A program made the translations under genes and the position numbers. This document shows, in pieces, positions 1,172-37,482 of a stretch of DNA of 64,000 nt. Under the pieces are notes generated by a model. The model made no database searches. It saw nothing but the letters and a program-made list of their open reading frames with translations, and had not been told where the DNA came from. Position 1 is the first letter of the stretch. Each line of letters starts with the position of its first letter. Origin of the DNA: an uncultured Alphaproteobacteria bacterium (GTDB lineage: Bacteria > Pseudomonadota > Alphaproteobacteria > RF32 > CAG-239). The DNA is taken from positions 2,503 through 66,502 of the forward strand of contig CALXTI010000006.1 of assembly GCA_944391395.1 (NCBI GenBank). The letters are read 5' to 3'.

Positions 1172-2143
1172 CTATGTAACCTCGGTAATGGCGCGCAGGT
1201 TTCCGTCGCGGTTAATTTGCACTACCCTGAGTTTATGGCGCATTTCTTCAATCGTTTTGGCACGATCGATCGTCGGATATGTATGCAAAATACGATCGGT
1301 GAAAGCTTGATATGCGGCTTCCGAACTTTCCGCATGGATGGTCGCCAGGCAGTTATCGTGACCGGAACCCATCAACTCCCATAAGGCACCGGCGTTGCTG
1401 GTCGAAATCTCACCGCCGATAATGGCGTCCGGCGTAAAACGGACGACCAAGTCAATGATTTTTGCATAATCCATTTCGTTCGTTTGCTCGGTACGGGACA
1501 ATACCAAATGCACACGATTTGGGTGCGGGACAATCAATTCCCGCGTATCTTCGATTGTTACAATACGTTTGTGAATGTCCAAAATTTTGAGCAGATTGTT
1601 CAAAAACGTCGTCTTACCGGTTGAAGTTGCACCACTGACCAGAATATGGTCGCCGCGTTTAATGCTCAACAGCAAGCGTTCATAAGGATCTTCCGGGTCT
1701 TTTATCTGTTTCAAAGGATTTATCTTATGCAGACCTTTGCCTTGAGCCAAGCCATAGTCTTCCAGACCGAACGCCACATCATCGCTATGAACGCGGATGG
1801 TCAAGGCAACACCGCCGGTTAAATCGCCTTCGTCATACATGACGTTACGCCCGGCAATCGCTGAAAAACGATGGTCGCCCGGTATAGTGGCGTAAACAAC
1901 CGGTGAACCGGATATCGGATCAAACGGCAGCTCATAAGTGTTGGCAACGATATAAAGCAAATCCGTTAAATATTCTTTGGTCAGTTTTTCATCTTTGTAC
2001 ATTACCCACGGATAAGCTCTTTTACCGCGCAAACGCAGCCAGATTTGCTCCGAACGATTGATTGCAACCTCTTCAATGTTTTCCTGATTATACCAATAAG
2101 CCAACGGGCGCAAAACAGATTCCAAAACCGTAAATGTACTCAT
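1172..2143 (-). CDS. virB11: T4SS ATPase VirB11
   Basis: Walker A GATSTGKTTFLNNLL lies in a VirB11/TrbB-type ATPase core. It is the last gene of the vir operon. The RBS is AAGGA. Confidence 0.9.
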   Translation of the reverse strand: MSTFTVLESVLRPLAYWYNQENIEEVAINRSEQIWLRLRGKRAYPWVMYKDEKLTKEYLTDLLYIVANTYELPFDPISGSPVVYATIPGDHRFSAIAGRNVMYDEGDLTGGVALTIRVHSDDVAFGLEDYGLAQGKGLHKINPLKQIKDPEDPYERLLLSIKRGDHILVSGATSTGKTTFLNNLLKILDIHKRIVTIEDTRELIVPHPNRVHLVLSRTEQTNEMDYAKIIDLVVRFTPDAIIGGEISTSNAGALWELMGSGHDNCLATIHAESSEAAYQAFTDRILHTYPTIDRAKTIEEMRHKLRVVQINRDGNLRAITEVT

Positions 2144-2158
2144 TATCCTTATCCTTTA

Positions 2159-5100
2159 TCAAAACAATTGCGCCGAAGTATTGTTGCTGCCGGCCGTTGA
2201 TGAAGGCGGCGGCGGGGTCGCGCCGGCAGATGTTACGGGCGGAATATTGACCGCGGACGATGGCTTTTTCTGACCGGATGTGGAAGTGTCGTCAATAAGC
2301 GGCATGGTCGCCCGGACATCTTCTGCATTTTCATCCAGATATACCACGCCGCTGGCACCCGGTGAGGTGCCGGTTGTGGTATTGCTGCTGCCGCCGGCAC
2401 TTCCACCGGCGCCACTATTGTCGCTACCGCCGCCTCCCGTTCCCGTCGGATTCCTATCATCAATAAATACCGTCGGTTTCTGTAAATCCTGCAAAGCTTC
2501 TTCTTCGCTGCGTTCAGGCGTTCTTACCCACAAATCTTCTTTCGGATAAATTATCAAGCGCGTACCTGCCGGAACATACGTTACCGCTTCAATATCGGTT
2601 TTATCCTGCAAAATTTGCTCAAACATTGTATCCATGTTATCCAAAAAGTTCTGACGGGCATCTTCGGCAGCTTCAGCGCGGGCGTTTTCAACTGTATTGC
2701 CGTCACTGTCGGTACTGGTTTCGCCGCTGGCGGCAACATAAGCGACAGCACTGCTTAAAAGGTTGGTAACCATCGGCAAAGTATACTTCTTGAGAAGTTG
2801 CTCGTCTAAATAACCCAAAGCTCCGGAACGTCCTTGCGCATCGCCGGTTTGTGCCGAAGAGAACTCAAAAGCCGAACCGTCCGGACGAATCAAACGTGTC
2901 CAGGTGATGGAAACTCTGACCGCACCGCCGCTCGTTCCTCCTCCGGAACCGCCGGAAGAAGTACCCATGACGCGGCTGCCGGCCGGAATAATAATGTTCC
3001 GCCCTTCTTCCGCATAAACATTCCGCTCAACAATTGCCGTTACCGGAACATCTCCGCCGCTGCTGCTGGACATGATTGTTCTGGCCAAAACCGCCGGAAT
3101 CGGCTTGTCTGCCAAAATCATCTCACTCATGTCAACTCGCCAAGACGATATCTGACGCGGCACACCTTCCCAATAATTCTGTCTGCCGTCGAAATCTTCT
3201 CTGCTGACATTCGTTGATAACTTGCCGACGGTGATTTCACCTCGGCGAGCGGCCTGAGCAGCCGCTAATGCCTGCGCACGAACCGGGTCATAACGTTCGC
3301 CCGGACCAAATCCGCCACCCGGGCCCAAGTTGGTCGGTGCCGTTCCGGTGCCATATGCACCTCCGGATCCAAACGTTCCGGCCGGAACAAACATCTGACC
3401 GGCTTTGACATTTTTGGCTTCTTCAATACCGATTAAATTTCCGTCATCGTCCATAATTAAGCCGTCCGGCATTCTTTTGCCTAACAAGTTGCCTAATTTA
3501 TCAATGACATCATTATTCATTAAGATATCACCCAAATAGTTGCCATCCGGAGTTAAGGCTATACCCACGGTCTTTAGTCCATATTCACCGACGTCTTCTT
3601 GCGGTGTCGGAACGGCATCAACCTTGATTTGTCCGGTCGGCGGCGTCGCCCATTCCGCAGGTTTAACCGGCTCCGGTTTATGCACGTTGTAATATTGCAG
3701 TTCGCGCGCCGTTGCCAATAAATTTGCATCATCATCTCTGATTTCGCCGCTGCCGGTGATATGGCCTATTGTTTCGCCTTTTGTATCAACCACTTCTCCG
3801 GTTAAGAGCAATTCACCGATAACTTGATTGTCTTTATCGCGAATAAAGTAATCCCGATTGCCGCGACCAATTAAAGCGTAATTCTTATCAACCAAGAAAC
3901 CTTTATCGGCTTTGCCTAAATTTCCGCCCGAAAAGTTGGCAACCCGTCCGTCTCTGGTTAAATAACCTATCGTATTGCCGTTTTCATCGTAAATATAAAA
4001 ATCATACAAAGCATAACCTATCGGTTTATTATCGGCCACAACCGTACCGTCATGGCGAACTTGTCCCAAGACATCGTTTTTATCGCTGACGACATTACCG
4101 TTTTCCAGAATTCGGCCTAAGAAATTATTGTCATTGTCAAAAGCCACTTTGTATTTGAACAAAAGTCCTAAAATTTCCCCTTCATTTGAAATCGCCGTAT
4201 TATCCGGTCTGACATAACCTATTGTCTCGCTTTTATCATTAATTAATCTGCCATTTAAATCACTGCGGCCGATAATCATGTTTTCAAAATTAATGACCGG
4301 CAACGGCTGCGCAAGTCCGCCAATAAAATGATTATCGGCATTATAGAACCTGCCGTCGCGACGGATGCAACCCAAATTTTCCTGAGCGTAATTAAGCACG
4401 CGGCCGGATATGTTGATTGTGCCGAGAGATTTTCCGTCAAAGTCCGTCACATTACCTGTTTCGACGCCGAAACCAACCACATTGCCGACCTCTGAAATCG
4501 CTTGTCCGTTGGTTAAAATCTTGCCTAAAATAACATCACGGCTGTTACGGATTTCACCTTTGGTGCCGATAACGCCTAAGAATGAACACTCATCGTTTAC
4601 AACGCCTTTAAAATCAATAACTTTACCAATAACGGAATTATTCGTATCTGCCACTGTTTCGGCATCAAGCATAGCTCCTATTTTGTTTCCGGAATAATCA
4701 TAAACATCTCCTTTGAAATCGGCATAGCCTAGCATGTTGCCATTGATGCCGACGGCAAGCAACGCTTTTCCGGCCGTACCGATAACCGGCATTTTGTTGT
4801 CATTTATATCTGCCGAACTTGAAACAAGAGCATATTCCGGCAAAATCTTAGCAATCGGCTCGTGTTTTTCATTCAACAACAAATTATTTTCCGCGGCGTA
4901 ACCTATGTTTGCACCTTCGTTTGTTTTGAAAAACAGCGGATTAATACTCGCGGCGACAACATTGTTTTCCGAATCCACAACCGCTCCGAACTGAGTCAGT
5001 TTATAATTCCGCTCTGCCGGGATGCCTTGCAAATCGCCGTTCAATCCGACATAACCTTCCACCGCGCCGTTTTCTTGATACAGCGCTTCCAAGCCAACCG

Positions 5101-6439
5101 TGTGGCCAATCAACAAATTATCCGCCGAGTAAACATATCCGAACGGCGAAATTTTGGATTTAATACCTTTGTCGGAAAAATCGGAACCTATGCCGCTTAA
5201 ACCTATCAAATTGTTGCTGTTGTCAAAAACCAGCAGATTATCCATGCCGGCGCCCAAAAGTCGACCTATGTTGTCATACATCAGTCTGCCCTTGGCGTAT
5301 CCCAAAGGCGTTCCCGTTGTAGATATAACCGTGCCGTTACGCAAAGATTGCGCAATCAGATTTCCCACATAATCAAACACCGGACCGGATTTAATAATCT
5401 GACCGATAATTTCGCCATCGGCATTCCAAACAAAACCTTTGGCACCGACGGTTCCGACCGTTTCACGCGCTTTGGCAATTTTGCCGCCCGGCATTAAACG
5501 TCCGAGGTATTTCCCTTGTAAATCCGTTGCCGTGGCTGCTATATCCAAGCTAAAACCTATAACCGAACCTTGTTCGTCAACCACTTTATCATCGGCACGC
5601 AAACGGGCAACAGTCTTTCCTTCATTAATAACTTCTCCGTTGTATGCTATCAGTCCCAAATAATTTCCGTAATTATCAAATGCGTAACCGTTAGTTACCA
5701 TTTTACCTATAACACGGTCGTTCTCGTCATAAACATATCCGTTGGCATGCACAAAACCTATGGCTTGGGAGGCAAAATCCGTAACGCGTCCGCCCGGCGT
5801 TACACTGCCGATAAAATTTCCTTCCGGCGAAATAACCATTTTTGCCGAAATCAACTTTCCATCCAAACCAAACCCGTTTCCGGTATTGCGGTAAGCGTAT
5901 CCTAGCGGTGAGATAAAGCCTATGTTTTGCCCCTCCATGCTAATGTATGATCCGTCGCCGGTCAAACGTCCGACCGTTTTGCCGGCATCGTCGTAGACCA
6001 AGCCCGGATATAATACGGAGCCGAGGATATTATATGAATCGTCAACCACCAAAGCGTTGGGCAATACTTTACCGACAATCTTTCCGGAAGGAAGTCGCAC
6101 GGAACCATCGTTGTTCACCCTTCCCAACAATTTGTTATCATTGCCGACCGCTATCCCTTGAGGAATAACGCCGCCGATAAGCTCTCCTTTTGCATTCACG
6201 ATAAAGCTGTCTGCAGTTACATTGCCGATGATGGCGTTATCAAAGCTGACAACCGTACCATCAGGGATAACCTTACCAATCAAATCACCGTTAAAATCTA
6301 TGGCCGTAATTTCCTGCGCATACACCGGTTTAACCGCCAATAAAATTGCGGCAAGGCTTATGTTAAACCATAACGCTATTTTTCCGACTTTGCCAAACAC
6401 CTTAATTCCTCCGATTTTGCGCAACATCCTGTAAAGCAT
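2159..6439 (-). CDS. virB10: Giant VirB10/TrbI-family protein (1426 aa). It has a signal peptide or TM anchor, about 900 aa of degenerate ~17-aa tandem repeats, a C-terminal VirB10/TrbI barrel domain, and a Gly/Ser/Pro-rich tail.
   Basis: The C-terminal region (VPVTAIVERNVYAEEGRNIIIPAGSRVMGT...VRVSITWTRLIRPDGSAFEF...LLSSAV) is characteristic of the TrbI/VirB10 family. The N-terminus MLRKIGGIKVFGKVGKIALWFNISLAAILLAVKPVYAQ looks like a signal peptide. An alternative GTG start at 6400 is preceded by GGAGGA and lies 1 nt after the stop of the upstream gene. That start would remove the 38-nt overlap. Confidence 0.8.
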   Translation of the reverse strand: MLYRMLRKIGGIKVFGKVGKIALWFNISLAAILLAVKPVYAQEITAIDFNGDLIGKVIPDGTVVSFDNAIIGNVTADSFIVNAKGELIGGVIPQGIAVGNDNKLLGRVNNDGSVRLPSGKIVGKVLPNALVVDDSYNILGSVLYPGLVYDDAGKTVGRLTGDGSYISMEGQNIGFISPLGYAYRNTGNGFGLDGKLISAKMVISPEGNFIGSVTPGGRVTDFASQAIGFVHANGYVYDENDRVIGKMVTNGYAFDNYGNYLGLIAYNGEVINEGKTVARLRADDKVVDEQGSVIGFSLDIAATATDLQGKYLGRLMPGGKIAKARETVGTVGAKGFVWNADGEIIGQIIKSGPVFDYVGNLIAQSLRNGTVISTTGTPLGYAKGRLMYDNIGRLLGAGMDNLLVFDNSNNLIGLSGIGSDFSDKGIKSKISPFGYVYSADNLLIGHTVGLEALYQENGAVEGYVGLNGDLQGIPAERNYKLTQFGAVVDSENNVVAASINPLFFKTNEGANIGYAAENNLLLNEKHEPIAKILPEYALVSSSADINDNKMPVIGTAGKALLAVGINGNMLGYADFKGDVYDYSGNKIGAMLDAETVADTNNSVIGKVIDFKGVVNDECSFLGVIGTKGEIRNSRDVILGKILTNGQAISEVGNVVGFGVETGNVTDFDGKSLGTINISGRVLNYAQENLGCIRRDGRFYNADNHFIGGLAQPLPVINFENMIIGRSDLNGRLINDKSETIGYVRPDNTAISNEGEILGLLFKYKVAFDNDNNFLGRILENGNVVSDKNDVLGQVRHDGTVVADNKPIGYALYDFYIYDENGNTIGYLTRDGRVANFSGGNLGKADKGFLVDKNYALIGRGNRDYFIRDKDNQVIGELLLTGEVVDTKGETIGHITGSGEIRDDDANLLATARELQYYNVHKPEPVKPAEWATPPTGQIKVDAVPTPQEDVGEYGLKTVGIALTPDGNYLGDILMNNDVIDKLGNLLGKRMPDGLIMDDDGNLIGIEEAKNVKAGQMFVPAGTFGSGGAYGTGTAPTNLGPGGGFGPGERYDPVRAQALAAAQAARRGEITVGKLSTNVSREDFDGRQNYWEGVPRQISSWRVDMSEMILADKPIPAVLARTIMSSSSGGDVPVTAIVERNVYAEEGRNIIIPAGSRVMGTSSGGSGGGTSGGAVRVSITWTRLIRPDGSAFEFSSAQTGDAQGRSGALGYLDEQLLKKYTLPMVTNLLSSAVAYVAASGETSTDSDGNTVENARAEAAEDARQNFLDNMDTMFEQILQDKTDIEAVTYVPAGTRLIIYPKEDLWVRTPERSEEEALQDLQKPTVFIDDRNPTGTGGGGSDNSGAGGSAGGSSNTTTGTSPGASGVVYLDENAEDVRATMPLIDDTSTSGQKKPSSAVNIPPVTSAGATPPPPSSTAGSNNTSAQLF

Positions 6440-9400
6440 AACCTGCTACATTTTTATCCAAATTAACAAATGAACCGTTGTTTTTCAAATATCCGATATT
6501 TTCTCCGGAAGAACCGGATACTTTCCCGCCCGCTTCCAAACGTCCGACGTAATCACCGTTATCCGAAAGAACGGCGGTGCCTATTTTGTATATCGTCCCG
6601 AAAACATTGTTTTGATTATCTATCGCCAAACCGCCTGACAGCACTTTGCCGATAACGACATTGCCGCTGTTCCTGATTGTTCCGTCAAAGCCGACATAAC
6701 CGGCCACTTGGTCTTGATTGTTAATCACAATATCTCCCGAAACCGTTTCTCCGATTAGACGGCCTTCCGAGTTGACCGCTTTGCCGTCGGAATACACTTT
6801 GCCGATAACGACATTGTTGGTATTGATTACGGAACCGTCCGGCATAACCGTTCCTATTATCTTGCCGCCAAAATCTATCACCACACCTCTTCTTAACACG
6901 CTCAAGCCTTTATCCGTCGAGCCACCGGGCAAAACGGCCGTCATTACTTTGCCCGTTAAATCGGCAACATCGCCGATGGCATTCGTATAACCGCTGTAAT
7001 TGCCAAACATGTCTATCATTAATGCCATCGGAACAACTTCTCCCAGGACATTTTTTTCAGCATCAAGAATTAAGCCGTCTCCGCTTTCGTATCCGGTTGT
7101 CTGACCTGATGCGCTCACCACGTTTCCGTCGGCTTTGACATATCCAAGATACGAACCATCGTAACCGATGGCTGCCCCGGGTACCACAACGCCGCCGGCA
7201 TACAAACCTTTGTCATTCAGCCACCTGCCTTTGGCATCTATGCGGCCAAGATATTCGCCAAAACGCGTCAGCACTCTGCCGTCCGGATTGACGAACCCGA
7301 CTTTTTGACCGGACGTGTCAACAACGGCTCCGGTCGGAAGAACTTTCCCGACATTGCCGGAATAAAAACTCAAACCGTCTCCGTATATTTTATCAACAAC
7401 AACGCCTTTCCCGTCATAAACGTTGCCGTCGGCAAAAAGTCTTCCCAAAATATCACCGTTGGAATTAACGACAATGTTTCTTTCAGGAAATGCAACCCCG
7501 ATAATTTTATTGTTGCCGTTAACAATGTATTTATGCAGCAGCAAACGGGCGTCAGGATATTGTTTGAGTATCAAAGAGCCGTCATTTTCGAAAGTGTTTA
7601 AATATGTTCCGTTGAGGTCAAAAGCATAAAACTTATCAATCAAATTTCCCTGATAGGCGCCATCTTCATTAAAGACTTCGCCGTCTTCATTGCTGCAACC
7701 GATGGGCAGCATGGCTCCCGACACGACCGTTCCTCCCGGCGTCATGCGACCGATTGTTTGTCCCTCTGCGTTGACGGCTGTTTTATATTGTGCAACTTTG
7801 CCGATAATGTCGCCGTTGTCATTCAAAACCGTTCCGTCAGGATTAACACAACCGACATATCGCTTATTGTCCGTTTGCACGATGCCTTGCTCGTTTGCCG
7901 TTCCCAAATAATTACACTGACGGTCAAAAACTCTCCCTACCGGTACGACGTTGCCTAAGAACTGACCGTTTACATTATAAACACCGCCGTCCGGATAAAT
8001 GCTATAAGGCATTTCTTGCCCGTTCTTTGTAATCGTACCGTCTTGGTTGAGCTGGCCGACATTGCTGCAGCCCCAGCCGACAATCGTTCCGCCTCTTAAA
8101 CCGCGGGCAATTATTTTTGACCCATTCGCATCACGAATTAACGTATTGGGCAATATGCGCCCGAAGACCTGACCTTTTTCATTAACAATCTCGCCGGTTG
8201 ACGAAACAGCGCCCAAAATTGTTCCCGCAGGTGTTACCGGTATCAATTCCATCCGGACGACAGAACCGATTTTTACGGCTTGATTGCTGATGATGTTGCC
8301 GTCTTTATCTACATGGCCGATGACTTCGCCGTTTCTGCCGATGACTTCGCCTTTGCTGTTAATGTAACCGATAACGTTGCCGTTTTCGTCAAGCGCCAAA
8401 TTGACATATTCACCGGCACGACCGATAATATTGCCATTTTTATCAACGACCGTACCATCTTCCAACATTCGGCCGATAACATTGCCGTTGGCATCCAAAA
8501 TTGTTCCGTCTTCCAAAATCTGACCGATTTTGTTACCGTTAAAATCAATAATATTGCCGTTTTCATCAATGTAGCCTATCGGATTGCCGTTCTCGTCATA
8601 ATACAAACGTCTTGAAGGACCCATTTTGCCGATTTGTTCGCCGCTTAATTTGTAAGCATCACCATTTTCATCAACATAGCCGACAACATTGCCGTTCTCG
8701 TCGACAATAGAATTATCCGGCATTACCACGCCTATCGGATTGCCGTTTTCATCAACGGCGGTTTGGCCGGAACGACTGACATAACCGATAACGTTGCCGT
8801 TCATGTCGACGACCTCGCCGTTTTCATTCATACGGCCGATAACGTTGCCTTCCATATCCACAACCGTTCCGTCTTCCAAAACCCGGCCGATGATATTGCC
8901 GTTTTCGTCATAAACATAGCCGGCATCAACCCCTCTGCCAATGATGTTTCCCACGCTGTCGACAATGGTGCCGTCGGCATTTAAATGTCCTATCGGGTTG
9001 CCGTTAAAATCAACCGCCTGTCCATCGGCCGTGACATAGCCGATAACATTACCGTTTTCGTCATAAATCAGTTTTTTATTGCCGGCAACGCCGATGATAT
9101 TGCCGTTTTCATCAACGATGAGACCGTCTTCGTTTACGCGACCGATGATATTGCCGTTTTCGTCCCGAACGTAGCCGTCTTCATCAATATAACCTATAAC
9201 TTCGCCGTTCGGTCCGTACGCAATCCGCGTTTTGGTCTCATCGGCCGTCACTTTGCCAATGACGTTGCCATCTTTGTCAAGCACTTGATTGTTGGTATTG
9301 ATGATGCCTAATTCGTTACCATTCAAGTCTACCGCACGGCCGTCCGGCGTAATATAACCGATAATATTGCCGTTTTCGTCCCGGATGACCATGCCTTCGC

Positions 9401-10028
9401 CCAAATCAGACCCCGGCGCCGTGGCACAGAAATTGCAATCTTCTTTGCTGATGGCATTGCCGTCAACCGGAATCTTTTGCGCTTTGGCGTTTTGAGCGCT
9501 GACATTTGTTTCGTGCCAAGAAACAATAAAATTGTTTTGGACGTTCCCGGCAACAACCGGCGCCCAGTTCATGGTAATGTTACAAGTCTGATTGCCGCGA
9601 AGTTCCGCGCTTGTGCAACCATCGCTGTATGTGAAACCGTCAAAGGGCGGTTCGGCCAGTTTTACCGAAACAATGCGAATGGCGGCTTTGCCGTTGGTGC
9701 CTATCGTAAGCACGTTTTTGGCTTCCGTTCCCAAAACAACCTGTCCCATATTGACCGGGTTCGGCGTTGTGGTTATCGGCAATTCGCCTTCTTCAACGTC
9801 TTCAAACTCAATATTGTCCATTAACGGATTGACATTATTTCCCAAATTTAGAGCGTCGTCATCTTCGGTAAAAACAGGCTCTTCATATTCCGTCGTCGGC
9901 GCTCCGCTGGAAAACAAAAGCAGAAGTCCAAACAAAAACACGACAAAGGAAGTGATACCAACGATTAAAATAATACGATTGGTTTTACGAACATACCTTT
10001 CCGAATGGGTTAAGACTTCTTTGCTCAT
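6402..10028 (-). CDS. Membrane-anchored tandem-repeat protein (1208 aa). It has an N-terminal cytoplasmic segment, one TM helix, and then dozens of 17-aa repeats with consensus DENGNIIGxVxxDGxVV that degenerate toward the C-terminus.
   Basis: The TM segment is IILIVGITSFVVFLFGLLLLF. Counting residues gives a repeat period of 17 aa, which equals 51 nt. The gene is located between virB9 and virB10. Mirror-image antisense ORFs in the track (DNIAVF...) are a side effect of the nucleotide periodicity. Confidence 0.7.
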   Translation of the reverse strand: MSKEVLTHSERYVRKTNRIILIVGITSFVVFLFGLLLLFSSGAPTTEYEEPVFTEDDDALNLGNNVNPLMDNIEFEDVEEGELPITTTPNPVNMGQVVLGTEAKNVLTIGTNGKAAIRIVSVKLAEPPFDGFTYSDGCTSAELRGNQTCNITMNWAPVVAGNVQNNFIVSWHETNVSAQNAKAQKIPVDGNAISKEDCNFCATAPGSDLGEGMVIRDENGNIIGYITPDGRAVDLNGNELGIINTNNQVLDKDGNVIGKVTADETKTRIAYGPNGEVIGYIDEDGYVRDENGNIIGRVNEDGLIVDENGNIIGVAGNKKLIYDENGNVIGYVTADGQAVDFNGNPIGHLNADGTIVDSVGNIIGRGVDAGYVYDENGNIIGRVLEDGTVVDMEGNVIGRMNENGEVVDMNGNVIGYVSRSGQTAVDENGNPIGVVMPDNSIVDENGNVVGYVDENGDAYKLSGEQIGKMGPSRRLYYDENGNPIGYIDENGNIIDFNGNKIGQILEDGTILDANGNVIGRMLEDGTVVDKNGNIIGRAGEYVNLALDENGNVIGYINSKGEVIGRNGEVIGHVDKDGNIISNQAVKIGSVVRMELIPVTPAGTILGAVSSTGEIVNEKGQVFGRILPNTLIRDANGSKIIARGLRGGTIVGWGCSNVGQLNQDGTITKNGQEMPYSIYPDGGVYNVNGQFLGNVVPVGRVFDRQCNYLGTANEQGIVQTDNKRYVGCVNPDGTVLNDNGDIIGKVAQYKTAVNAEGQTIGRMTPGGTVVSGAMLPIGCSNEDGEVFNEDGAYQGNLIDKFYAFDLNGTYLNTFENDGSLILKQYPDARLLLHKYIVNGNNKIIGVAFPERNIVVNSNGDILGRLFADGNVYDGKGVVVDKIYGDGLSFYSGNVGKVLPTGAVVDTSGQKVGFVNPDGRVLTRFGEYLGRIDAKGRWLNDKGLYAGGVVVPGAAIGYDGSYLGYVKADGNVVSASGQTTGYESGDGLILDAEKNVLGEVVPMALMIDMFGNYSGYTNAIGDVADLTGKVMTAVLPGGSTDKGLSVLRRGVVIDFGGKIIGTVMPDGSVINTNNVVIGKVYSDGKAVNSEGRLIGETVSGDIVINNQDQVAGYVGFDGTIRNSGNVVIGKVLSGGLAIDNQNNVFGTIYKIGTAVLSDNGDYVGRLEAGGKVSGSSGENIGYLKNNGSFVNLDKNVAGYALQDVAQNRRN
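8250..9330 (-). repeat. Most regular core of the 51-nt in-frame tandem coding repeat array. A degenerate array extends from about 2900 to 9350 across both giant genes.
   Basis: Near-identical 20-25-nt cores recur every 51 nt. Examples are ccgataacgttgccgttttcgtc and ccgatgatattgccgttttc. Confidence 0.7.
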
Positions 10029-10044: not shown

Positions 10045-11664
10045 TTATTGCACCCTTACAACGCTGCAGAAAACACCGTTGCGGCCAAGCTGGCTGCAAA
10101 TATTGTCGCCGGCATCAATCGATGAAACCGGACCTATCCTTAAATGGAACAGTTCCTTTCCCTGTCCGTCAGCCGGAGCGTCAACCGAGTAAAACGGTTG
10201 ATACGAGCTTAAAACTGAAGAATATTTCCTTGAAAGCTCGCTCCACAGATTTTCCAAATTGCTGACATCGGCATCCGTTCCGAGTTCAACCGAGATGCTG
10301 GCGGCATCGCTCCCTTCAAAGCCACTGCCATAGCGATATTTTGCAAAAACATCTTCATCATCGCCGGACATTGTTTTACTTTGATGCGGCAGCCGATGCA
10401 TTTTGCTGTAATCTATCCCATCATCGGCATCGCCGGCATATTTCGGCGACAACAATTCGCCGTCCGGGCCGACCCGCATTACGTTTTCGCCGACGACCTC
10501 ACCTTCCGTACCTTGACCTATGTTTCTTCCGTTTTGGGTTGAACCATTGTCATATCCCGAATTACGGGAAGAACGATTGGCAGCTGTCGCCGAAGAAGCT
10601 GCCCCTCCCGGAATTGCCGGCGGAACATCCCAATCATTCGTTTCGGCGTATGTAACATTATCCAATCCTTCGGCATCGTCACGACGCATTTTCAGGCAAA
10701 CAATACGCTTGCCGTTGCGCAACACCATGTCGCCGACACCTTCGACAATAATCAAACGATTGTTCGGCCCTTTCGTTCTGAAACCGACCGGCGTTTCAAC
10801 CCGTTCGACAATCAAGGTAACAATCGGACGTTGTATCATATTCAACGCCTTTTCACCCAAATCAATATAAGTGAAAATGTCATCATGCCAGACGCGTTCC
10901 GGCGCAATCACAACGTCATCCGGATTTGGCACATAAATTTCAATATCAAAGCGAAATTGAGACGGATCAAGCGGAATGCTTTTTATCCAATCTTCTTTTT
11001 GGAAACGTTTGGTAAAAGTTGAATCAACGGAATGATTATTGTTTCCGCGGTAAGAACTGGCATTAACGTGTCCGCCGCCGGAGCCGCTGCCAAGGCTTCC
11101 GACGGTGCTACCATTTTTTCCCGAATCAACCACTTCTATGTCAATAATCGAGTTAGTCAAACGTTCTGTATTCACCCCTTCGCTGCGAGCATAGAAAACA
11201 TATTTGTTGCCGGAACGGCCAAAAACAATGATGTTGGTGTCCACACCGACCATCGCGCCCTGCTTAGGATACAAAAGCAAAGTGCTGGGACCGGAAATTC
11301 TGCCGTCAAAGGTTTTGCTGTCGCCGATGTAGACGTCTTCAACCAATTCCCATTCCGGAAAATTAACCAACGTTATCATGCCTTCACGCAATCTTATCGG
11401 CAAGACCAAATCCGGCGTCCAGTAATAACGCGAATACGCCGGCTTGCTTTGCCCTTCGCCCAAATTTTGCAAAGGATCAAGCCATGCGCTTTGCATCATG
11501 CCCAGAGAGCTGATGCCTGTATAGCCCATGTTCATCGGCTGATACATTCCCTGGCTTTGATCCGCGTTTTGATTCAAGCTGTCTATTGTTGCCTGCCCGT
11601 TAGCCGCAAGCGGGATTGCGGCAAAAGCAAGAGCTGAAAAAATTTTTGTCAGATAACGTTTCAT
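10045..11664 (-). CDS. virB9: VirB9/TrbG-family protein with a C-terminal extension (539 aa). The extension is glycine/serine-rich and ends in a SPOR-like segment.
   Basis: It has a signal peptide MKRYLTKIFSALAFAAIPLAANGQ. Both VirB9 N- and C-domains are present (for example DDVVIAPERVWHDDIFTYIDLG). The C-terminus ELFHLRIGPVSSIDAGDNICSQLGRNGVFCSVVRV resembles a SPOR peptidoglycan-binding repeat. Confidence 0.75.
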   Translation of the reverse strand: MKRYLTKIFSALAFAAIPLAANGQATIDSLNQNADQSQGMYQPMNMGYTGISSLGMMQSAWLDPLQNLGEGQSKPAYSRYYWTPDLVLPIRLREGMITLVNFPEWELVEDVYIGDSKTFDGRISGPSTLLLYPKQGAMVGVDTNIIVFGRSGNKYVFYARSEGVNTERLTNSIIDIEVVDSGKNGSTVGSLGSGSGGGHVNASSYRGNNNHSVDSTFTKRFQKEDWIKSIPLDPSQFRFDIEIYVPNPDDVVIAPERVWHDDIFTYIDLGEKALNMIQRPIVTLIVERVETPVGFRTKGPNNRLIIVEGVGDMVLRNGKRIVCLKMRRDDAEGLDNVTYAETNDWDVPPAIPGGAASSATAANRSSRNSGYDNGSTQNGRNIGQGTEGEVVGENVMRVGPDGELLSPKYAGDADDGIDYSKMHRLPHQSKTMSGDDEDVFAKYRYGSGFEGSDAASISVELGTDADVSNLENLWSELSRKYSSVLSSYQPFYSVDAPADGQGKELFHLRIGPVSSIDAGDNICSQLGRNGVFCSVVRVQ

Positions 11665-11684: not shown

Positions 11685-12431
11685 TTATTCCGCCTCATTG
11701 TGCGAAAGCGAATACCTGGTTACGGTAAACCCGACCGGATTGTTCAAGCGTTCGCCATACTTAACAACTTTTTTTCGATACATAATCCTTAAAGAGGCTG
11801 TCCAGTAGTTGACTTCCGGAGCCGCAGAATCCGGATACATATCCCGGGTTTCATACTCCACTTGCCACAAACCTCTGCCCAATTCATTGACGGTCATAAT
11901 CCGCACCATGCGATTTAATCCCCTGGTTCTGATAATATCCAGAGCCTGATTGGCCGTGCGGTCGATAAACGCCTGATAAACCGTCGGCGTTGACATTTCC
12001 TGCAACGGTCCGCCCGGCATCCAGCGAGATTCCATCTCCTGAACGTCATTGGTGAAAGCGCTTCTTAAAAGCACATACTCACGTACAAAAACTTCCGTAA
12101 TGGCTTTTTGATCTTCCATATTGGAAAGCGGTACAATATCATACACCTGTTCTTCCTTGTTTTCAAAAGTCAAAAGAAAAGGCTCTATCCGATACAAGGG
12201 AAGAAGTTGGGCAATCGCCAAAATTAAAACAAAATTGCAACACAAACTGATGGCCACGACCACGGCAAATGCACGAGCCGTCCATAAATATCTTTTTTCA
12301 CTTGCGTTGACGACAATCTCGTCTTCTTCACGACGACGCGGCTGAGGCCGACGAACAACTTTCCGCGGCATGGCGTTTCCGTTGCCGAGCAAACGTTGTT
12401 CCGTGTTGTTTATGCCTAAACGATCCGCCAT
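11685..12431 (-). CDS. virB8: VirB8 (bitopic, NTF2-like periplasmic domain)
   Basis: It has an N-terminal TM helix. The REYVLLRSAFTND motif and the C-terminal NPVGFTVTRYS signature are shared with the paralog at 12774-13532. Confidence 0.8.
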   Translation of the reverse strand: MADRLGINNTEQRLLGNGNAMPRKVVRRPQPRRREEDEIVVNASEKRYLWTARAFAVVVAISLCCNFVLILAIAQLLPLYRIEPFLLTFENKEEQVYDIVPLSNMEDQKAITEVFVREYVLLRSAFTNDVQEMESRWMPGGPLQEMSTPTVYQAFIDRTANQALDIIRTRGLNRMVRIMTVNELGRGLWQVEYETRDMYPDSAAPEVNYWTASLRIMYRKKVVKYGERLNNPVGFTVTRYSLSHNEAE

Positions 12432-12438
12432 AATACAC

Positions 12439-12627
12439 CTATATCGTTGCTACAAACCAATCCGGAAGTGTTTTTGGTAATTCTATTTCAATGCATGCGC
12501 ATGGCGAAAGTTTCAGTTCGTTCACATCTTTACCTATGCCGACCGGTTCCGGCTCATAATACGAACCAAACAGCCCGCATGCCGATAAAATCAGAATAGC
12601 AATCAACAAAACAACTTTTTTATACAT
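12439..12627 (-). CDS. virB7: Small lipoprotein, a VirB7-like candidate (62 aa)
   Basis: The signal peptide has a lipobox (LLIAILILSAC-G). Its small size and position between two virB8 genes and upstream of virB9 match the rvh-type order. Confidence 0.5.
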   Translation of the reverse strand: MYKKVVLLIAILILSACGLFGSYYEPEPVGIGKDVNELKLSPCACIEIELPKTLPDWFVATI

Positions 12628-12773
12628 TGCAATGTTCCTTTTATATATGTCCAGACATTATCACATTAAACTTTTTCTTTTTAAAAGTCTAACATGAAGC
12701 TCTTACATCCCCAACTTATCAACAAGTTAGAAGAATGTTTTATGGTATCATAAATGAAAAAGATTAATATAAA

Positions 12774-13532
12774 TTAAAGAATTTCAACTTCCGTTTGAGA
12801 ATATCTTGTCACGGTAAAGCCTAAAGGATTCATCAAGCGTTTTGACATGAACAGGCGCTCAGGCACGAAAAATGCCGTAACAGAAGCCGTCCAATACTTT
12901 GTAACAAGAACCAAACTTCCGGTTGCATCGTTACGAACATCGGGCGACAGGTCATAAGTGCGAAAATCAACTTTCCATACCGGACTTTTTTCGCCGCCGA
13001 CTTTGCCGATGGATATAATTTCCACATCACGCACGATTTTGTCTCGAAGCAATCTGTTGAGTTCTTGTTCACGACCTTTGTCGAACTCGGCAAAAACTTG
13101 CGAAGACGACATATATGCGACCATGCCGCCGCCAAACCACCGGGTTTGCATTTCTCGTTCATCGCTTAGCACCGTGTTGCGCAAAATAACATACTGACGG
13201 ATAAAGTTTTCCATCATCTGCCTTGAAGACGCCATATCGGGTGCAATCGGCTCATAACGTACCATTGTATCGGAGCTGTCTTGCCGGATAATCAAAAACG
13301 GTTCCACCATCACTTCCGGAGCTAGGCGAAACAACACCAATGAGGCACTGGCAAAAAAGCCCAAAGACAGAATGGCAAACAAAATCACCAACCGCGACAA
13401 CCAGCAATAATAGCTCTCTTTAGCGCCTTTTAATTCAGGGCTTTGATCCGTCACATACTCAAAATGCGTTTGCGGTGCATTGGCATCGGTAATTGCCAGT
13501 GTTTTATTGCCATTTCCCAGTTGTTCTACCAT
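12774..13532 (-). CDS. virB8: VirB8 paralog
   Basis: It has a TM helix, the IRQYVILRNTVLSDEREMQTRW motif and the C-terminal NPLGFTVTRYS signature. It is a paralog of the gene at 11685-12431. Confidence 0.8.
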   Translation of the reverse strand: MVEQLGNGNKTLAITDANAPQTHFEYVTDQSPELKGAKESYYCWLSRLVILFAILSLGFFASASLVLFRLAPEVMVEPFLIIRQDSSDTMVRYEPIAPDMASSRQMMENFIRQYVILRNTVLSDEREMQTRWFGGGMVAYMSSSQVFAEFDKGREQELNRLLRDKIVRDVEIISIGKVGGEKSPVWKVDFRTYDLSPDVRNDATGSLVLVTKYWTASVTAFFVPERLFMSKRLMNPLGFTVTRYSQTEVEIL

Positions 13533-17728: not shown

Positions 17729-17738
17729 CGCCTTCTCC

Positions 17739-28778: not shown

Positions 28779-28859
28779 TAAGTGTTTTGTTAAGCTTGAT
28801 TATTTAATTTGCAACCTATATGATTGGAAAATATTATGTGTGACAAAGGGGATTTGAAC

Positions 28860-29603
28860 ATGAATAAAAAACTATTTTTACTGGTCTGCTTAGCGGGCAT
28901 GGCAGGCTGCGCACACCAAAACTCCACATACACAGCGCCATGCACGGGGCCAAATTGTCCGGCTCGGGTTGTCGCCGCGGAGGATGTTGTGCTGCCGCCG
29001 GACGATTATATCTGCCAAACAACAAATGATCCGGAATTATGTCCGTCCGACCCGTTTGTCAATTATACCGGGACCGCTGCCGACTTCAGAGAATACGGCG
29101 AAAGAACGCCGCGTGATTCAATGATTTCGCAGGCAGGCGCCGGAAACAACCTTGCCGCATCCATTCCGCCATCAATCGAAGATGAAGTTATTGAATACGA
29201 AGAACAAATCAATCCGGAAGGGGATTTGACGGCAATCGCCGAAGAAACCGTCGAAGAAGATGTTTCCGAAACGGATGAGGACGGCGTAAGCGGCAACATA
29301 GAAGATGAAGAGGGCATGGAAGATATTGAAGATCCCGTCCAAGACTGGCTGGCCGAAGAAGGGCAAAATTTAAAGGCCTTGTTGACGGATTGGAGCGAAA
29401 AGTCAGGTTGGCGCCTGGTTTGGAACACAAACCGCAATTATGTTTTGAGCGCCGGCGCCATGTTCAGAGGACGCTTTGCCGATGTCAGCTCGGCTTTAAT
29501 CAGAGCTTTTGCCAGAGCGCGCCCGGCACCGATTGCAACGTTTTATAAAGGAAACCGTGTTTTAGTGGTTGAAACAATGGAGGATGAGAATGCGTATGAA
29601 TAA
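28860..29603 (+). CDS. pilL: PilL-like lipoprotein with a TcpQ-like C-terminal domain
   Basis: It has a lipoprotein signal MNKKLFLLVCLAGMAGC with a GGGGA RBS upstream. It has an acidic linker and a C-terminal GWRLVWNTNRNYVL... motif typical of the TcpQ/PilL family. The longer ORF in the track starts at 28824. Confidence 0.55.
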   Translation: MNKKLFLLVCLAGMAGCAHQNSTYTAPCTGPNCPARVVAAEDVVLPPDDYICQTTNDPELCPSDPFVNYTGTAADFREYGERTPRDSMISQAGAGNNLAASIPPSIEDEVIEYEEQINPEGDLTAIAEETVEEDVSETDEDGVSGNIEDEEGMEDIEDPVQDWLAEEGQNLKALLTDWSEKSGWRLVWNTNRNYVLSAGAMFRGRFADVSSALIRAFARARPAPIATFYKGNRVLVVETMEDENAYE

Positions 29604-31242: not shown

Positions 31243-31257
31243 CGGAAAGGAAAAACC

Positions 31258-34075: not shown

Positions 34076-34090
34076 CAGGGTTGTCGAAAA

Positions 34091-35755: not shown

Positions 35756-35768
35756 GAGTTTGTAAATT

Positions 35769-36887: not shown

Positions 36888-36888
36888 A

Positions 36889-37482
36889 ATGCAAATCCGT
36901 TTGGCGGATAAATTAAAGCAAAGTTCCGCAATGCTCCTGAATTTTTATCATGGTAAATATTTTTGGAGCTTTGCGGCAACGTTGGTCATCTTGTCGGTCG
37001 TGGTTTTGTTTGTGTGTCTGCCGGGACAAGACACGCGTTTTAACGCCGCACATCAAGAGTTATCCGTTTTGGTAAAGAACATTCGCAATCATTATAAAGT
37101 TCGGCCTGATTATTGGGGTTTGAACACCTCTAATGCCATCAAAAACAACTTGGTGCCGGTAGATATGCAACATGATGATAAAATCATCAGCGCTATCGGT
37201 CGGGAAATTATTCTCGGGCAAGATATAAACGGCAGCATGGTCATGCCGGGACAACGCAACTTTATGATAACGATACCTAATTTAAGCAAAGCCGCCTGTA
37301 TAGAGATGATTTCCAGACCTTTCAGTCAAGAGGAGCATTTAGGGTTGTTGAAAGTATCTCTTTTGGCTGCGGACAATTTGCAAGAATTTGAATGGGGCGG
37401 TAAACTTTCTTTGCCCATAGAAAAAAAGACGGCAAAGGAGTTTTGCAAAAATCAAAACACTATCAGTTGGATATTTGAATAA
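36889..37482 (+). CDS. Candidate type IVb prepilin (PilS-like) or small membrane protein
   Basis: It has a GGGAGG RBS. A charged ~22-aa leader ends in Gly (..NFYHG) and is followed by the hydrophobic helix KYFWSFAATLVILSVVVLFV. It occupies the position of pilS after pilR. The in-frame ORF extends upstream to 36847. Confidence 0.3.
   Translation: MQIRLADKLKQSSAMLLNFYHGKYFWSFAATLVILSVVVLFVCLPGQDTRFNAAHQELSVLVKNIRNHYKVRPDYWGLNTSNAIKNNLVPVDMQHDDKIISAIGREIILGQDINGSMVMPGQRNFMITIPNLSKAACIEMISRPFSQEEHLGLLKVSLLAADNLQEFEWGGKLSLPIEKKTAKEFCKNQNTISWIFE

What the first reader, a model, noticed from the sequence alone, without database searches (positions are those of the whole stretch)
2159..6439. Giant VirB10 (1426 aa) with about 900 aa of tandem repeats N-terminal to the TrbI barrel, analogous to CagY
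Canonical VirB10 is about 380-450 aa. Here the proline-rich periplasmic linker is replaced by dozens of ~17-aa beta-strand-like repeats. In this gene the N-terminus also looks like a cleavable signal peptide rather than a cytoplasmic TM anchor. The only well-known VirB10 homologue with a giant repeat region is Helicobacter CagY, where in-frame repeat recombination tunes T4SS function and immune evasion. The 51-nt DNA periodicity here would allow the same mechanism.
Basis: partly seen in the sequence, partly recalled or inferred. Interest (0 to 1): 0.85.

Follow-up and report, generated by a model that had tools for sequence, protein, structure and literature searches.

The report
Outer half of a split giant VirB10
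This gene is a real, very large VirB10 protein of a type IV secretion system in uncultured human-gut Alphaproteobacteria, but it is only the outer-membrane half of a VirB10 that has been split into two genes, and its ~55 beta-hairpin repeats are a fixed, strongly conserved scaffold, not a CagY-like variable region.

Summary
The ORF (2159-6439, minus strand) is real. Its likely start is the GTG at 6400, giving 1413 aa. The C-terminus is a genuine VirB10/TrbI barrel with the helical antenna. The gene lies between virB9 and virB11 in a chromosomal T4SS locus.

The N-terminal ~870 aa are about 52 beta-hairpins of 17 aa, with 3 more after a short Pro-rich linker. They score as Pfam beta-flower (PF21785). 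AlphaFold models them as one rigid body (pLDDT 89, pTM 0.82), and no solved structure resembles it.

The CagY analogy fails:
- The DNA has no repeats beyond chance (longest 12 nt).
- 14 of 15 listed strain variants are 1413 aa.
- Orthologues are collinear.
- dN/dS in the array is 0.07-0.09.

The N-terminus is a cleavable signal peptide because the membrane anchor sits on the upstream gene (6402-10028, 1208 aa). That gene's tail, TM helix and Ig-like domain match the N-termini of single-chain relatives of 1498-2406 aa, one of which occupies the same virB9-virB11 slot. In a TrbI tree the split forms nest inside the single-chain giants.

This is a new variant of a known kind: a naturally split VirB10 with a beta-hairpin array. 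How the array works is inferred, not shown.

The parts
2159..6400 (-). Gene for the outer-membrane (C-terminal) half of the split giant VirB10. The likely product is 1413 aa from the GTG at 6400; the maximal ORF reaches the ATG at 6439 (1426 aa).
   Evidence: ORF. GGAGG lies 7 nt upstream of the GTG. Database orthologues are called at 1413 aa.
6317..6400 (-). Sec signal peptide (MFGKVGK-IALWFNISLAAILLAV-KPVYA|QE).
   Evidence: A conserved AxA-type site immediately precedes the conserved mature start EITAIDF in 18 of 19 representatives. Hydrophobicity is lower than in TM anchors of single-chain relatives. Cleavage itself is inferred.
3695..6316 (-). Main beta-hairpin (beta-flower) array, aa 42-915, about 52 hairpins of 17 aa.
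5915..6316 (-). First eight hairpins of the mature protein (aa 42-175). This is the most conserved part of the array and the candidate docking surface.
   Evidence: Column conservation is 0.81 against 0.47-0.50 in mid-array. dN/dS is 0.006-0.015. The docking role is inferred.
3572..3694 (-). Short Pro-rich, disordered linker (aa ~916-956). In a sister clade this is the site of an inserted 58-aa cassette region.
   Evidence: pLDDT is below 50 here. Sequence. Sister-clade cassettes.
3422..3571 (-). Three further hairpins (aa 957-1006) next to the barrel.
   Evidence: Six strands with pLDDT 77-89. Conservation 0.79.
3119..3421 (-). Gly-rich disordered linker followed by a conserved helix (aa 1007-1107).
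   Evidence: disordered at model residues 71-107, helix at 113-132. The near-invariant NLGPGGGFGPGERYDP motif is seen.
2531..3118 (-). VirB10/TrbI beta-barrel domain (aa 1108-1303), including the two antenna helices (aa 1213-1237 and 1253-1280, coordinates 2600-2803).
   Evidence: Pfam and NCBIfam, PDB sequence hits, model, Foldseek to VirB10 C-terminal domains.
2162..2446 (-). Disordered Gly/Ser/Pro-rich C-terminal tail (aa 1332-1426) ending in the conserved ...AQLF-COOH.
   Evidence: pLDDT below 50. A terminal L-[FY] is found in 17 of 19 split and an aromatic end in 14 of 17 single-chain giants, against 2 of 20 ordinary VirB10.
6402..10028 (-). Gene for the inner-membrane (N-terminal) half of the split VirB10, 1208 aa. 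It has a cytoplasmic tail and TM helix (aa 1-40, 9909-10028), an Ig-like domain (aa ~86-167, 9528-9773) and a beta-flower array (aa ~215-1200, 6429-9386).
   Evidence: Pfam Bflower_2 E=3e-77, plus weak ASH and choice-of-anchor-D hits. The N-terminal 210 aa match residues 1 to ~200 of 7 of 7 single-chain giants, E 6e-27 to 2e-13. Conserved in all 12 related loci.
6398..6412 (-). Junction of the two halves: GGAGG (6408-6412) inside the last codons of the upstream gene, TAA (6402-6404) and GTG (6398-6400).
   Evidence: Sequence read. Translational coupling is inferred.
1172..2143 (-). virB11 ATPase, immediately downstream.
   Evidence: NCBIfam TIGR02788 E=1.4e-42 and Pfam T2SSE.
10045..11664 (-). 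virB9 (CagX domain) with a C-terminal SPOR domain, immediately upstream of the pair.
   Evidence: Pfam CagX E=1.2e-10 and SPOR E=2.4e-4, 21.8 bits against a cut-off of 21.
11685..13532 (-). virB8 (12774-13532), a 62-aa lipoprotein that is VirB7-like by position and lipobox (12439-12627), and a second virB8 (11685-12431).
   Evidence: Pfam VirB8 hits on both. The lipobox LILSAC is visible. The VirB7 identity is inferred; there is no family hit.
21660..24146 (-). virB4 ATPase at the head of the same minus-strand cluster.
   Evidence: Pfam CagE_TrbE_VirB E=8.7e-18.

Best explanation
The ORF encodes the outer-membrane half of a type IV secretion system VirB10 that has been split into two adjacent, probably translationally coupled genes.

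This half is exported by a cleavable Sec signal peptide. Its C-terminal TrbI barrel and two-helix antenna assemble with VirB9 and VirB7 into the outer-membrane cap, as in other T4SSs. Its ~55 beta-hairpins (beta-flower family) form a rigid periplasmic body. That body takes the place of the flexible Pro-rich linker of ordinary VirB10.

The cytoplasmic tail and the inner-membrane anchor that every ordinary VirB10 carries are on the upstream gene product (1208 aa). That product has its own beta-flower array.

Inferred, not shown: the two halves re-form the inner-to-outer-membrane bridge non-covalently, using the extremely conserved first eight hairpins of this protein and the conserved C-terminal end of the upstream one. 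In the oligomeric machine the arrays would build an enlarged periplasmic cylinder or cage, as the repeat region of DotG is thought to do.

The array of this half is a fixed structural element under purifying selection, not a recombination-driven variable region.
For: Identity as VirB10:
- TrbI domain, barrel and antenna in the model, and structural matches to VirB10 C-terminal domains only.
- The order virB8-lipoprotein-virB8-virB9-[pair]-virB11 is conserved in 11 of 11 genome loci and in L013-L015.

Split:
- Single-chain relatives of 1498-2406 aa have Bflower_2 plus TrbI.
- Their N-termini (S-x-x-Y-x-K-K-S-N-R tail, TM helix, Ig-like domain) match the first 210 aa of the window's upstream protein at the same position, in 7 of 7 tested, E 6e-27 to 2e-13.
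- One of them, P0164, sits as a single gene between CagX/virB9 and virB11.
- There is a clean dichotomy of N-termini: signal peptide plus EITAIDF, or tail plus TM.
- In an NJ tree of the TrbI domain the giants are monophyletic and the split clade nests inside the single-chain forms.
- GGAGG-TAA-GTG junction.

Rigid array: pLDDT 89.1 and pTM 0.82 over 991 residues.

Fixed, constrained array:
- No DNA repeats beyond chance.
- Constant length among strains and species.
- dN/dS 0.07-0.09, and 0.006-0.015 for the first eight hairpins.
- Conservation is highest at the new N-terminus, and both ends of the upstream protein are nearly invariant.

Precedent: DotG couples the outer-membrane complex to the cytoplasmic complex through a cylinder, and interacts with the bitopic protein DotF (PMC6761968).
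Against: - No experiment and no complex model shows that the two halves bind each other. I could not inspect model coordinates, so the shape and length of the array are unknown.
- The upstream half varies from 1146 to 2446 aa between species. That is hard to reconcile with a rod of fixed length spanning the periplasm, so the geometry must be something other than a simple end-to-end strut.
- The break is not a simple cut. The first 120 mature residues match best residues ~350-470 of single-chain giants, so duplication or expansion accompanied the split.
- The tree is neighbour-joining without bootstrap.
- Signal-peptide cleavage is inferred from sequence rules only.
- virB6, virD4 and a relaxase were not found in the window, so the substrate and role of the system are unknown.
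Confidence: 0.72

Rival explanations
1. One reading: a CagY-like contingency locus. The 51-nt periodic repeats recombine in frame, changing repeat number and so tuning T4SS activity or evading host immunity.
For: - The protein is a giant repeat-bearing VirB10 from a host-associated (gut) bacterium.
- In a sister clade a 58-aa cassette is present in 1, 2 or 3 copies, and one allele has a larger segmental duplication. The extra copy in the 3-copy allele is a recombinant mosaic with 53-nt and 31-nt exact runs.
- The upstream partner gene varies from 1146 to 2446 aa between species, and in L009 and L007 it has 102-nt tandem repeats at up to 83% identity.
Against: For this gene:
- TRF finds nothing.
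- The longest exact repeat is 12 nt, equal to the codon-shuffled expectation.
- Median identity between units is 33% at the nucleotide level and 18% at the amino-acid level.
- 14 of 15 listed strain variants are 1413 aa, with no indel in the array.
- Orthologues are collinear, with position-specific conservation.
- dN/dS is 0.07-0.09.

In the sister clade, the common 2-copy allele (146 blocks) has cassettes 86% identical in protein but only 69% in DNA, with no exact run longer than 8 nt. The 3-copy allele is on 1 contig.
Confidence: 0.05
2. The two ORFs are really one gene, broken by a sequencing or assembly frameshift or by recent pseudogenisation. Alternatively, they are fused during translation by programmed frameshifting in the 38-nt overlap.
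For: The ORFs overlap or abut in different frames. Single-chain homologues exist.
Against: - The same split is seen in 11 species-level genomes and in several independent metagenome assemblies.
- Every downstream half begins with a canonical signal peptide and AxA site. A mere frameshift would not create that.
- A GGAGG-spaced GTG start follows the stop codon.
- Both halves are under strong purifying selection.
- In the sister clade the genes abut without any overlap, so no frameshift site is conserved.
Confidence: 0.04
3. The beta-hairpin array is mainly a ligand-binding module rather than a structural bridge. It would anchor the machine to peptidoglycan or to membrane lipid.
For: [quoted passage not shown]
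- The neighbouring VirB9 carries a peptidoglycan-binding SPOR domain.
- The hairpins locally resemble YD/RHS repeats (weak RHS/YD hits on the upstream protein).
- Tolerance of large length changes in the upstream half fits an avidity module better than a strut.
Against: - No function has been shown for any beta-flower protein.
- The position-specific conservation and the high pTM of this array suggest one defined architecture rather than interchangeable binding units.
- This reading is compatible with the main explanation and does not exclude it.
Confidence: 0.15

Closest known systems
Canonical VirB10 / TrbI (A. tumefaciens VirB10, pKM101 TraF, R388 TrwE, X. citri VirB10, H. pylori ComB10)
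   Same: C-terminal beta-barrel with a two-helix antenna. The gene lies between virB9 and virB11.
   Different: - 1413 aa, against about 400-630 aa for the nearest ordinary relatives.
- No cytoplasmic tail or TM anchor on this polypeptide; it has a signal peptide instead.
- The Pro-rich linker is reduced to about 30 aa and replaced by ~55 beta-hairpins.
- It scores below NCBIfam's curated VirB10 and ComB10 cut-offs (92.5 against 220 bits; 113 against 300).
- It has a long disordered tail ending in an aromatic residue.
Helicobacter pylori CagY
   Same: A giant VirB10 homologue with a very large repeat region N-terminal to the VirB10 domain. The CagY C-terminal domain is a structural match.
   Different: - cagY has many direct DNA repeats whose recombination gives in-frame variants between strains and during infection (abstracts of PMC2194252, PMC3585145 and PMC5954226, seen). 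Here there are none beyond chance and no strain variation.
- Similarity to CagY is confined to the TrbI domain.
- CagY is a single membrane-spanning chain (PMC10706595 abstract); this protein is one half of a split pair.
Legionella / Coxiella DotG (IcmE)
   Same: A VirB10-domain protein enlarged by a repeat region, with length differing between species (about 1000 to over 1500 aa). It is thought to form the periplasmic cylinder and to work with a second bitopic inner-membrane protein, DotF (PMC6761968). The DotG dome is a structural hit.
   Different: The DotG repeat is a 10-aa motif [KR]xAG[FY][STND]xxx[LI] (bioRxiv 10.1101/2023.03.22.533729), which has 0 matches here. DotG keeps its own TM anchor. 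DotF is not a piece of VirB10, whereas the partner here is homologous to the N-terminus of single-chain giants.
Single-chain beta-flower VirB10 giants (P0160, P0164, P0189, P0200 and others, 1498-2406 aa; unnamed metagenomic proteins)
   Same: The same TrbI subfamily (43-54% identity in the domain for most, 35% for P0200), the same beta-flower array, the same Gly-rich linker, the same aromatic C-terminus, and (P0164) the same gene neighbourhood.
   Different: They are one polypeptide with tail, TM helix, Ig-like domain, array and TrbI. The window's lineage has these parts on two polypeptides, and the second has acquired a signal peptide.
Beta-flower fold proteins (Pfam PF21784/PF21785, Durairaj et al. 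2023, PMC10584680)
   Same: It passes the Pfam threshold by a wide margin (184.5 against 38 bits). The hairpin unit carries a [DNEQ]xxG tip motif, enriched here at 43 observed against 28 +/- 4 expected. No similar PDB structure was found, as the authors also reported.
   Different: The described examples are single small domains of about 96 aa, some being lipoproteins. Here about 55 hairpins are arrayed in one rigid body and fused to a secretion-system domain. I could not check whether they close into discrete 5-fold flowers.

Membership tests
VirB10 / TrbI family | C-terminal TrbI beta-barrel domain detectable by profile | tested here: met
   Pfam PF03743, E=3.7e-31, 108.9 bits against a cut-off of 35, covering 2-186 of 188 profile positions. 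PDB hits to ComB10, TrwE, VirB10, CagY and TraF.
VirB10 / TrbI family | Helix-loop-helix antenna projection inserted in the barrel (forms the outer-membrane pore) | tested here: met
   The model has two long helices at aa 1213-1237 and 1253-1280 with a low-confidence loop between them. The fold matches VirB10 C-terminal domains with TMt 0.54-0.69. Membrane insertion itself was not tested.
VirB10 / TrbI family | N-terminal cytoplasmic segment and a single inner-membrane TM anchor on the same polypeptide | tested here: not met
   This ORF has a signal-peptide-like N-terminus with a conserved AxA site. The tail and TM helix are on the upstream ORF 6402-10028, which is homologous to the N-termini of single-chain giants.
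VirB10 / TrbI family | Extended Pro-rich periplasmic linker | tested here: not met
   Only about 30 Pro-rich residues remain (aa ~920-950). The array has 2.4% Pro.
VirB10 / TrbI family | Gene located with virB8, virB9 and virB11 in a T4SS locus | tested here: met
   Synteny is conserved in 11 of 11 loci.
VirB10 / TrbI family | Score above NCBIfam curated equivalog cut-offs (VirB10, ComB10, TrbI) | tested here: not met
   92.5 against 220 bits, 113.1 against 300, and 41 against 386. It is a divergent member, not an equivalog of any named subfamily.
CagY-type variable-repeat VirB10 | Extensive direct DNA repeats that can recombine in frame | tested here: not met
   TRF finds none. The longest exact repeat is 12 nt, against 11.3 (maximum 13) in codon shuffles.
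CagY-type variable-repeat VirB10 | Repeat-number variation among strains of one species | tested here: not met
   14 of 15 listed cluster members are 1413 aa. The exception has no indel in the array.
CagY-type variable-repeat VirB10 | Sequence homology of the repeat region to the CagY repeats | tested here: not met
   With aa 940-1426 as query, CagY matches only query residues 174-292, which lie in and just before the TrbI domain. For the main array, Pfam assigns only beta-flower-type families.
DotG / IcmE | 10-aa repeat motif [KR]xAG[FY][STND]xxx[LI] | tested here: not met
   0 matches. The motif is taken from bioRxiv 10.1101/2023.03.22.533729.
Beta-flower (Pfam PF21785 / clan CL0395) | Profile match above the gathering threshold | tested here: met
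   Bflower_2 at 184.5 bits against 38, in 8 stretches. Bflower at 58.4 against 25.
Beta-flower (Pfam PF21785 / clan CL0395) | Beta-hairpin petals with a semi-conserved [DNEQ]xxG tip motif | tested here: met
   About 104 alternating short strands. 43 motifs against 28.4 +/- 4.1 in shuffles.
Beta-flower (Pfam PF21785 / clan CL0395) | Hairpins closing into discrete 4-, 5- or 6-fold shallow barrels | not testable with these tools
The pTM of 0.82 says only that the whole array is one rigid body. Foldseek shows local YD/RHS-like hairpins with a different global shape (TM 0.07-0.10).

The most novel reading that the evidence does not exclude
A whole lineage of T4SSs, common in human-gut Alphaproteobacteria, has replaced the flexible VirB10 linker by about 1500-2000 residues of beta-hairpin array per protomer. 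In one clade it has cut VirB10 into an inner-membrane half and an outer-membrane half that are held together only non-covalently. If so, the oligomer would contain a multi-megadalton periplasmic structure built from a fold with no solved representative. It would also be a natural test of whether VirB10's envelope-spanning, energy-sensing role needs a continuous polypeptide.
Probability: 0.35. Interest if true: 0.8.

Novelty: new variant of a known kind. Interest (0 to 1): 0.6.

Why it matters
VirB10 is the one T4SS subunit thought to span the whole cell envelope and to pass signals from the inner-membrane ATPases to the outer-membrane pore. A lineage in which this subunit is naturally split would be useful in three ways:
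- It would test whether that coupling needs covalent continuity, since the outer half here has no membrane anchor.
- It gives the beta-flower fold, so far known only from predictions and without a function, its first clear cellular context.
- It flags an unstudied, unusually elaborate secretion machine in Alphaproteobacteria that recur in human-gut metagenomes. One allele of the sister clade is listed in 146 blocks of the assembly collection.

It also corrects an attractive but wrong analogy: this repeat array is conserved scaffolding, not an antigenic-variation device.

Tried and rejected
- CagY-like recombination. Tested with TRF, direct-repeat search, longest exact repeat against codon shuffles, cluster-member lengths and dN/dS. 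Rejected for this gene.
- The 1552 / 1559 / 1569-aa series in the sister clade looked like single-hairpin (17-aa) steps. In fact 1552 against 1569 is only a choice of start codon, and 1559 is a 10-aa deletion in an EAEA..RLAAE stretch.
- A simple mid-array cut as the fission point. The junction query did not map to one contiguous place in single-chain giants. The mature N-terminus matches their residues ~350-470.
- AFDB search of the model was not possible because the library was unavailable.
- A larger alignment for the C-terminal model failed, so a smaller one was used.
- The exact sequence of the upstream protein is not in the protein collection, so its strain-level length variation could not be read.
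- NCBIfam gave no names for the small or unknown proteins of the locus.
- Literature searches for VirB10 with RF32, type IV secretion with RF32, split or fission VirB10, and beta-flower found no description of this architecture.

Full report
**1. What is in the sequence**

A 1426-codon ORF runs from 6439 to 2159 on the minus strand. The upstream ORF (10028-6402) ends ...CGG AGG AAT TAA. A GTG follows two bases later, at 6400. The GGAGG inside those last codons lies 7 nt upstream of that GTG. Gene callers in public assemblies start the protein there, giving 1413 aa. I take 2159-6400 as the gene. Residue numbers below follow the 1426-codon ORF.

**2. The C-terminus is a true VirB10 domain**

- Pfam TrbI matches aa 1108-1303 at E=3.7e-31, over almost the whole profile.
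- NCBIfam finds ComB10, VirB10 and TrbI models, all below their curated equivalog cut-offs.
- phmmer against the PDB finds ComB10, TrwE, X. citri VirB10, CagY and TraF.
- An AlphaFold model of aa 940-1426 shows, in order: three hairpins, a disordered Gly-rich stretch, a helix, a beta-barrel (pLDDT 81-97), two long helices separated by a low-confidence loop (the antenna), and a disordered 95-aa tail.
- The top 24 Foldseek hits of that model in the PDB are all VirB10-family C-terminal domains, including F-plasmid TraB and the DotG dome. Probability is 1.0 and TM-score per target is 0.54-0.69.

**3. The repeats**

- Protein autocorrelation peaks at lag 17.
- Written in rows of 17, the unit xxGxxIGxVxxDGxVxD is visible from aa 42 to about 915 and again at 957-1006.
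- Pfam assigns the region to Bflower_2 (PF21785; E=5e-55, 8 stretches) and Bflower (PF21784). This is the beta-flower fold, described from AlphaFold models in 2023. It is built of beta-hairpin petals with a [DNEQ]xxG tip, has no known function and no similar PDB structure (PMC10584680).
- AlphaFold with 45 orthologues models aa 40-1030 at mean pLDDT 89.1 and pTM 0.82, with about 104 short strands. A pTM that high over 991 residues means one rigid body, not beads on a string.
- Foldseek reports local similarity to YD/RHS shells (teneurins, Rhs, Tse5), but TM-scores are only 0.07-0.10. The hairpins are of a similar kind and the global shape is different.
- I could not view coordinates, so the shape and length of the array remain unknown.

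**4. The CagY analogy fails for this gene**

- Tandem Repeats Finder reports nothing in the gene.
- Identity at DNA lag 51 is 34%, against a 29% background.
- The longest exact direct repeat in the repeat-coding DNA is 12 nt. Codon-shuffled versions give 11.3 on average and 13 at most.
- Hairpin units are a median 18% identical in protein and 33% in DNA.
- Of 15 listed members of the protein's 90%-identity cluster, 14 are exactly 1413 aa. The one exception is collinear through residue 1146 and differs only in a TrbI loop and at the C-terminus.
- Orthologues from 51 to 100% identity are 1368-1445 aa. They align collinearly, so each hairpin has its own conserved identity.
- Against three relatives, dN/dS is 0.07-0.09 for the array, 0.006-0.015 for the first eight hairpins, 0.05-0.14 for TrbI and 0.17-0.28 for the tail. 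dS is saturated, so these values are rough.
- This is the pattern of a constrained scaffold, not of a contingency locus or an immune-evasion target.

**5. Where the membrane anchor went**

The N-terminus is a signal peptide. In 18 of 19 representatives a variable basic and hydrophobic stretch ends in small residues at -3/-1, directly before the conserved EITAI(D/N)F.

The upstream gene (6402-10028, 1208 aa) begins with a 17-residue basic tail and a strong TM helix, followed by an Ig-like domain and about 985 aa of the same kind of hairpins (Bflower_2 E=3e-77).

A full HMMER search with the TrbI domain against 1.84 billion representatives gave these results:
- The closest relatives are all giants.
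- One group (1407-1888 aa) starts with the signal peptide and EITAIDF.
- The other group (1498-2406 aa) is single-chain, and the four members I scanned have Bflower_2 plus TrbI.
- Ordinary VirB10 of about 400-630 aa appear only at much weaker scores.

The single-chain giants start with S-x-x-Y-x-K-K-S-N-R, a TM helix and an Ig-like domain. The first 210 residues of the window's upstream protein, which are not repetitive, match residues 1 to ~200 of 7 of 7 of them, at E 6e-27 to 2e-13. One of them, P0164 (2363 aa), lies as a single gene in the order virB8, 58-aa gene, virB8, CagX/virB9, giant, virB11. That is the window's gene order with one gene where the window has two.

In a neighbour-joining tree of the TrbI domain (221 columns, 56 sequences), the giants are monophyletic and the split forms are a single clade nested within the single-chain forms. 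The simplest reading is one fission of an already giant VirB10, after which the outer half acquired a signal peptide. The break was not a plain cut: the first 120 mature residues match best residues ~350-470 of the single-chain proteins (48% identity to P0164). Duplication or expansion of the array therefore accompanied the split.

**6. Conservation around the split**

- All 11 species-level genomes recovered, and three further metagenome loci, keep the pair in the same place.
- The outer half's most conserved array segment is its new N-terminus (0.81 column conservation, against 0.47-0.50 in mid-array).
- The inner half keeps its first 41 and last 30 residues almost invariant, while its length ranges over 1146, 1207/1208, 1225, 1370/1371, 1632 and 2446 aa.
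- The longest versions of the inner half contain 102-nt (two-hairpin) tandem repeats at up to 83% identity. The expandable array is therefore the inner-membrane half, between species.
- Part of the conservation at the junction may come from the overlap and the embedded ribosome-binding site.

**7.

In a sister clade (about 44-48% identical; 1503-1711 aa), the Pro-rich linker is replaced by a short helical stretch and by 58-aa cassettes.
- The cassettes occur in 1, 2 or 3 copies, and one allele has a larger duplication.
- They are 84-95% identical in protein but only 69-80% in DNA.
- In the common 2-copy allele the longest shared exact run is 8 nt.
- The extra copy in the rare 3-copy allele is a mosaic of the other two.

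Rearrangements do happen there, but rarely. The window's gene has no such cassette.

**8. Context**

The locus is chromosomal.
- Housekeeping genes nearby: yidC, engB, addAB-like, xerC/D-like, dciA, atpB, ftsH, a DNA methylase and accD.
- On the minus strand from 26442 to 1172: three VirB2-like genes; a small hydrophobic ORF where virB3 would be expected; virB4; four secreted coiled-coil proteins without family hits (622, 237, 436 and 1394 aa); virB8; a 62-aa lipoprotein; virB8; virB9 with a SPOR domain; the split virB10; and virB11.
- No virB6, virD4 or relaxase was found in the window.
- The relatives are all uncultured Alphaproteobacteria MAGs, several named as human-gut genomes (HGM16767, MGYG-HGUT-00610).
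- Duplicated virB8 genes recall the Rickettsiales rvh systems (PMC2653234). I did not test that relationship.

**9. How it most likely works**

Shown:
- The VirB10 C-terminal domain with its antenna.
- The signal-peptide-like N-terminus.
- A rigid, conserved hairpin array.
- A partner gene that carries the missing VirB10 N-terminus.

Inferred:
- The outer half is exported and cleaved. Its barrel joins VirB9 and VirB7 in the outer-membrane cap.
- Its array meets the array of the inner-membrane half in the periplasm, through the highly conserved ends. This restores the envelope-spanning VirB10 function without a covalent link.
- In a 14-fold or similar oligomer the arrays could form an enlarged cylinder or cage, as proposed for the DotG repeat region.

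The large length differences of the inner half argue against a simple fixed-length strut. A peptidoglycan- or lipid-binding role for the hairpins is a live alternative and could coexist with the bridge.

**10. Novelty and verdict**

The proteins are in public databases, named at most 'TrbI/VirB10 family protein'. I found no paper describing a beta-flower VirB10 or a split VirB10.

This is a new variant of a known kind. The VirB10 assignment is correct, the CagY-type mechanism is not supported, and the more interesting fact is the split.

Noticed in passing
window 6402-10028 (-); L009 4970-12292; L007 6600-11494: The inner-membrane partner gene differs greatly in length between species (1146, 1207/1208, 1225, 1370/1371, 1632 and 2446 aa), while its first 41 and last 30 residues are almost invariant. 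The longest versions carry 102-nt (two-hairpin) tandem repeats at up to 83% identity. In the window its longest exact repeat is 23 nt, above the shuffled maximum of 15.
   Followed up: partly
L013 8752-9267; L014 about 8830-9190 (proteins P0038, P0070, P0049, P0040): A sister clade of the VirB10 half has 58-aa cassettes (YVIGDDGYLRDANGNIIGR...) in 1, 2 or 3 copies between the main array and the barrel. They are 84-95% identical in protein but only 69-80% in DNA. The third copy of the rare 3-copy allele is a recombinant mosaic.
   Followed up: yes
window 2162-2176 (-), the last residues of the protein: The giant VirB10s end in an aromatic residue after a long disordered tail (...AQLF, ...PRLF, ...ARMF): 17 of 19 split forms and 14 of 17 single-chain forms, against 2 of 20 ordinary VirB10. 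This recalls the C-terminal signal of outer-membrane proteins. It is unexplained.
   Followed up: partly
window 10045-11664 (-): VirB9 (539 aa) carries a C-terminal SPOR (peptidoglycan-binding) domain, which just passes the Pfam threshold (21.8 against 21 bits).
   Followed up: no
window 13544-21577 (-): Four secreted, acidic, coiled-coil-looking proteins (622, 237, 436 and 1394 aa) lie between virB4 and virB8, where virB5 and virB6 would be expected. None hits any Pfam or NCBIfam family. The 1394-aa and 436-aa ones were found wherever the related loci reach that far, but the 1394-aa one evolves fast (30-64% identity).
   Followed up: partly
window 24506-26442 (-): There are three VirB2-like pilin genes in a row. 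One is 387 aa, with a long Gly/Asn/Asp-rich C-terminal extension. Its TrbC/VirB2 hit is just under the Pfam threshold (27.1 against 27.9 bits).
   Followed up: no
window 28824-37482 (+), and 37545-38504 (-): A type IVb-pilus or Tcp-like cluster (TcpQ, secretin, PilO-like, T2SSE ATPase, T2SSF platform, and a further ATPase on the other strand) lies directly beside the T4SS locus.
   Followed up: no
window 12439-12627 (-): A 62-aa lipoprotein (lipobox LILSAC) lies between the two virB8 genes and is conserved in all related loci (74-95% identity). It is VirB7-like by position only.
   Followed up: partly
L001-L011 against window 1172-2143: VirB11 is 93-99.7% identical across genomes in which the VirB10 half is 56-80% identical and the 1394-aa protein 30-64%. 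Evolutionary rates are therefore very uneven within one operon.
   Followed up: no
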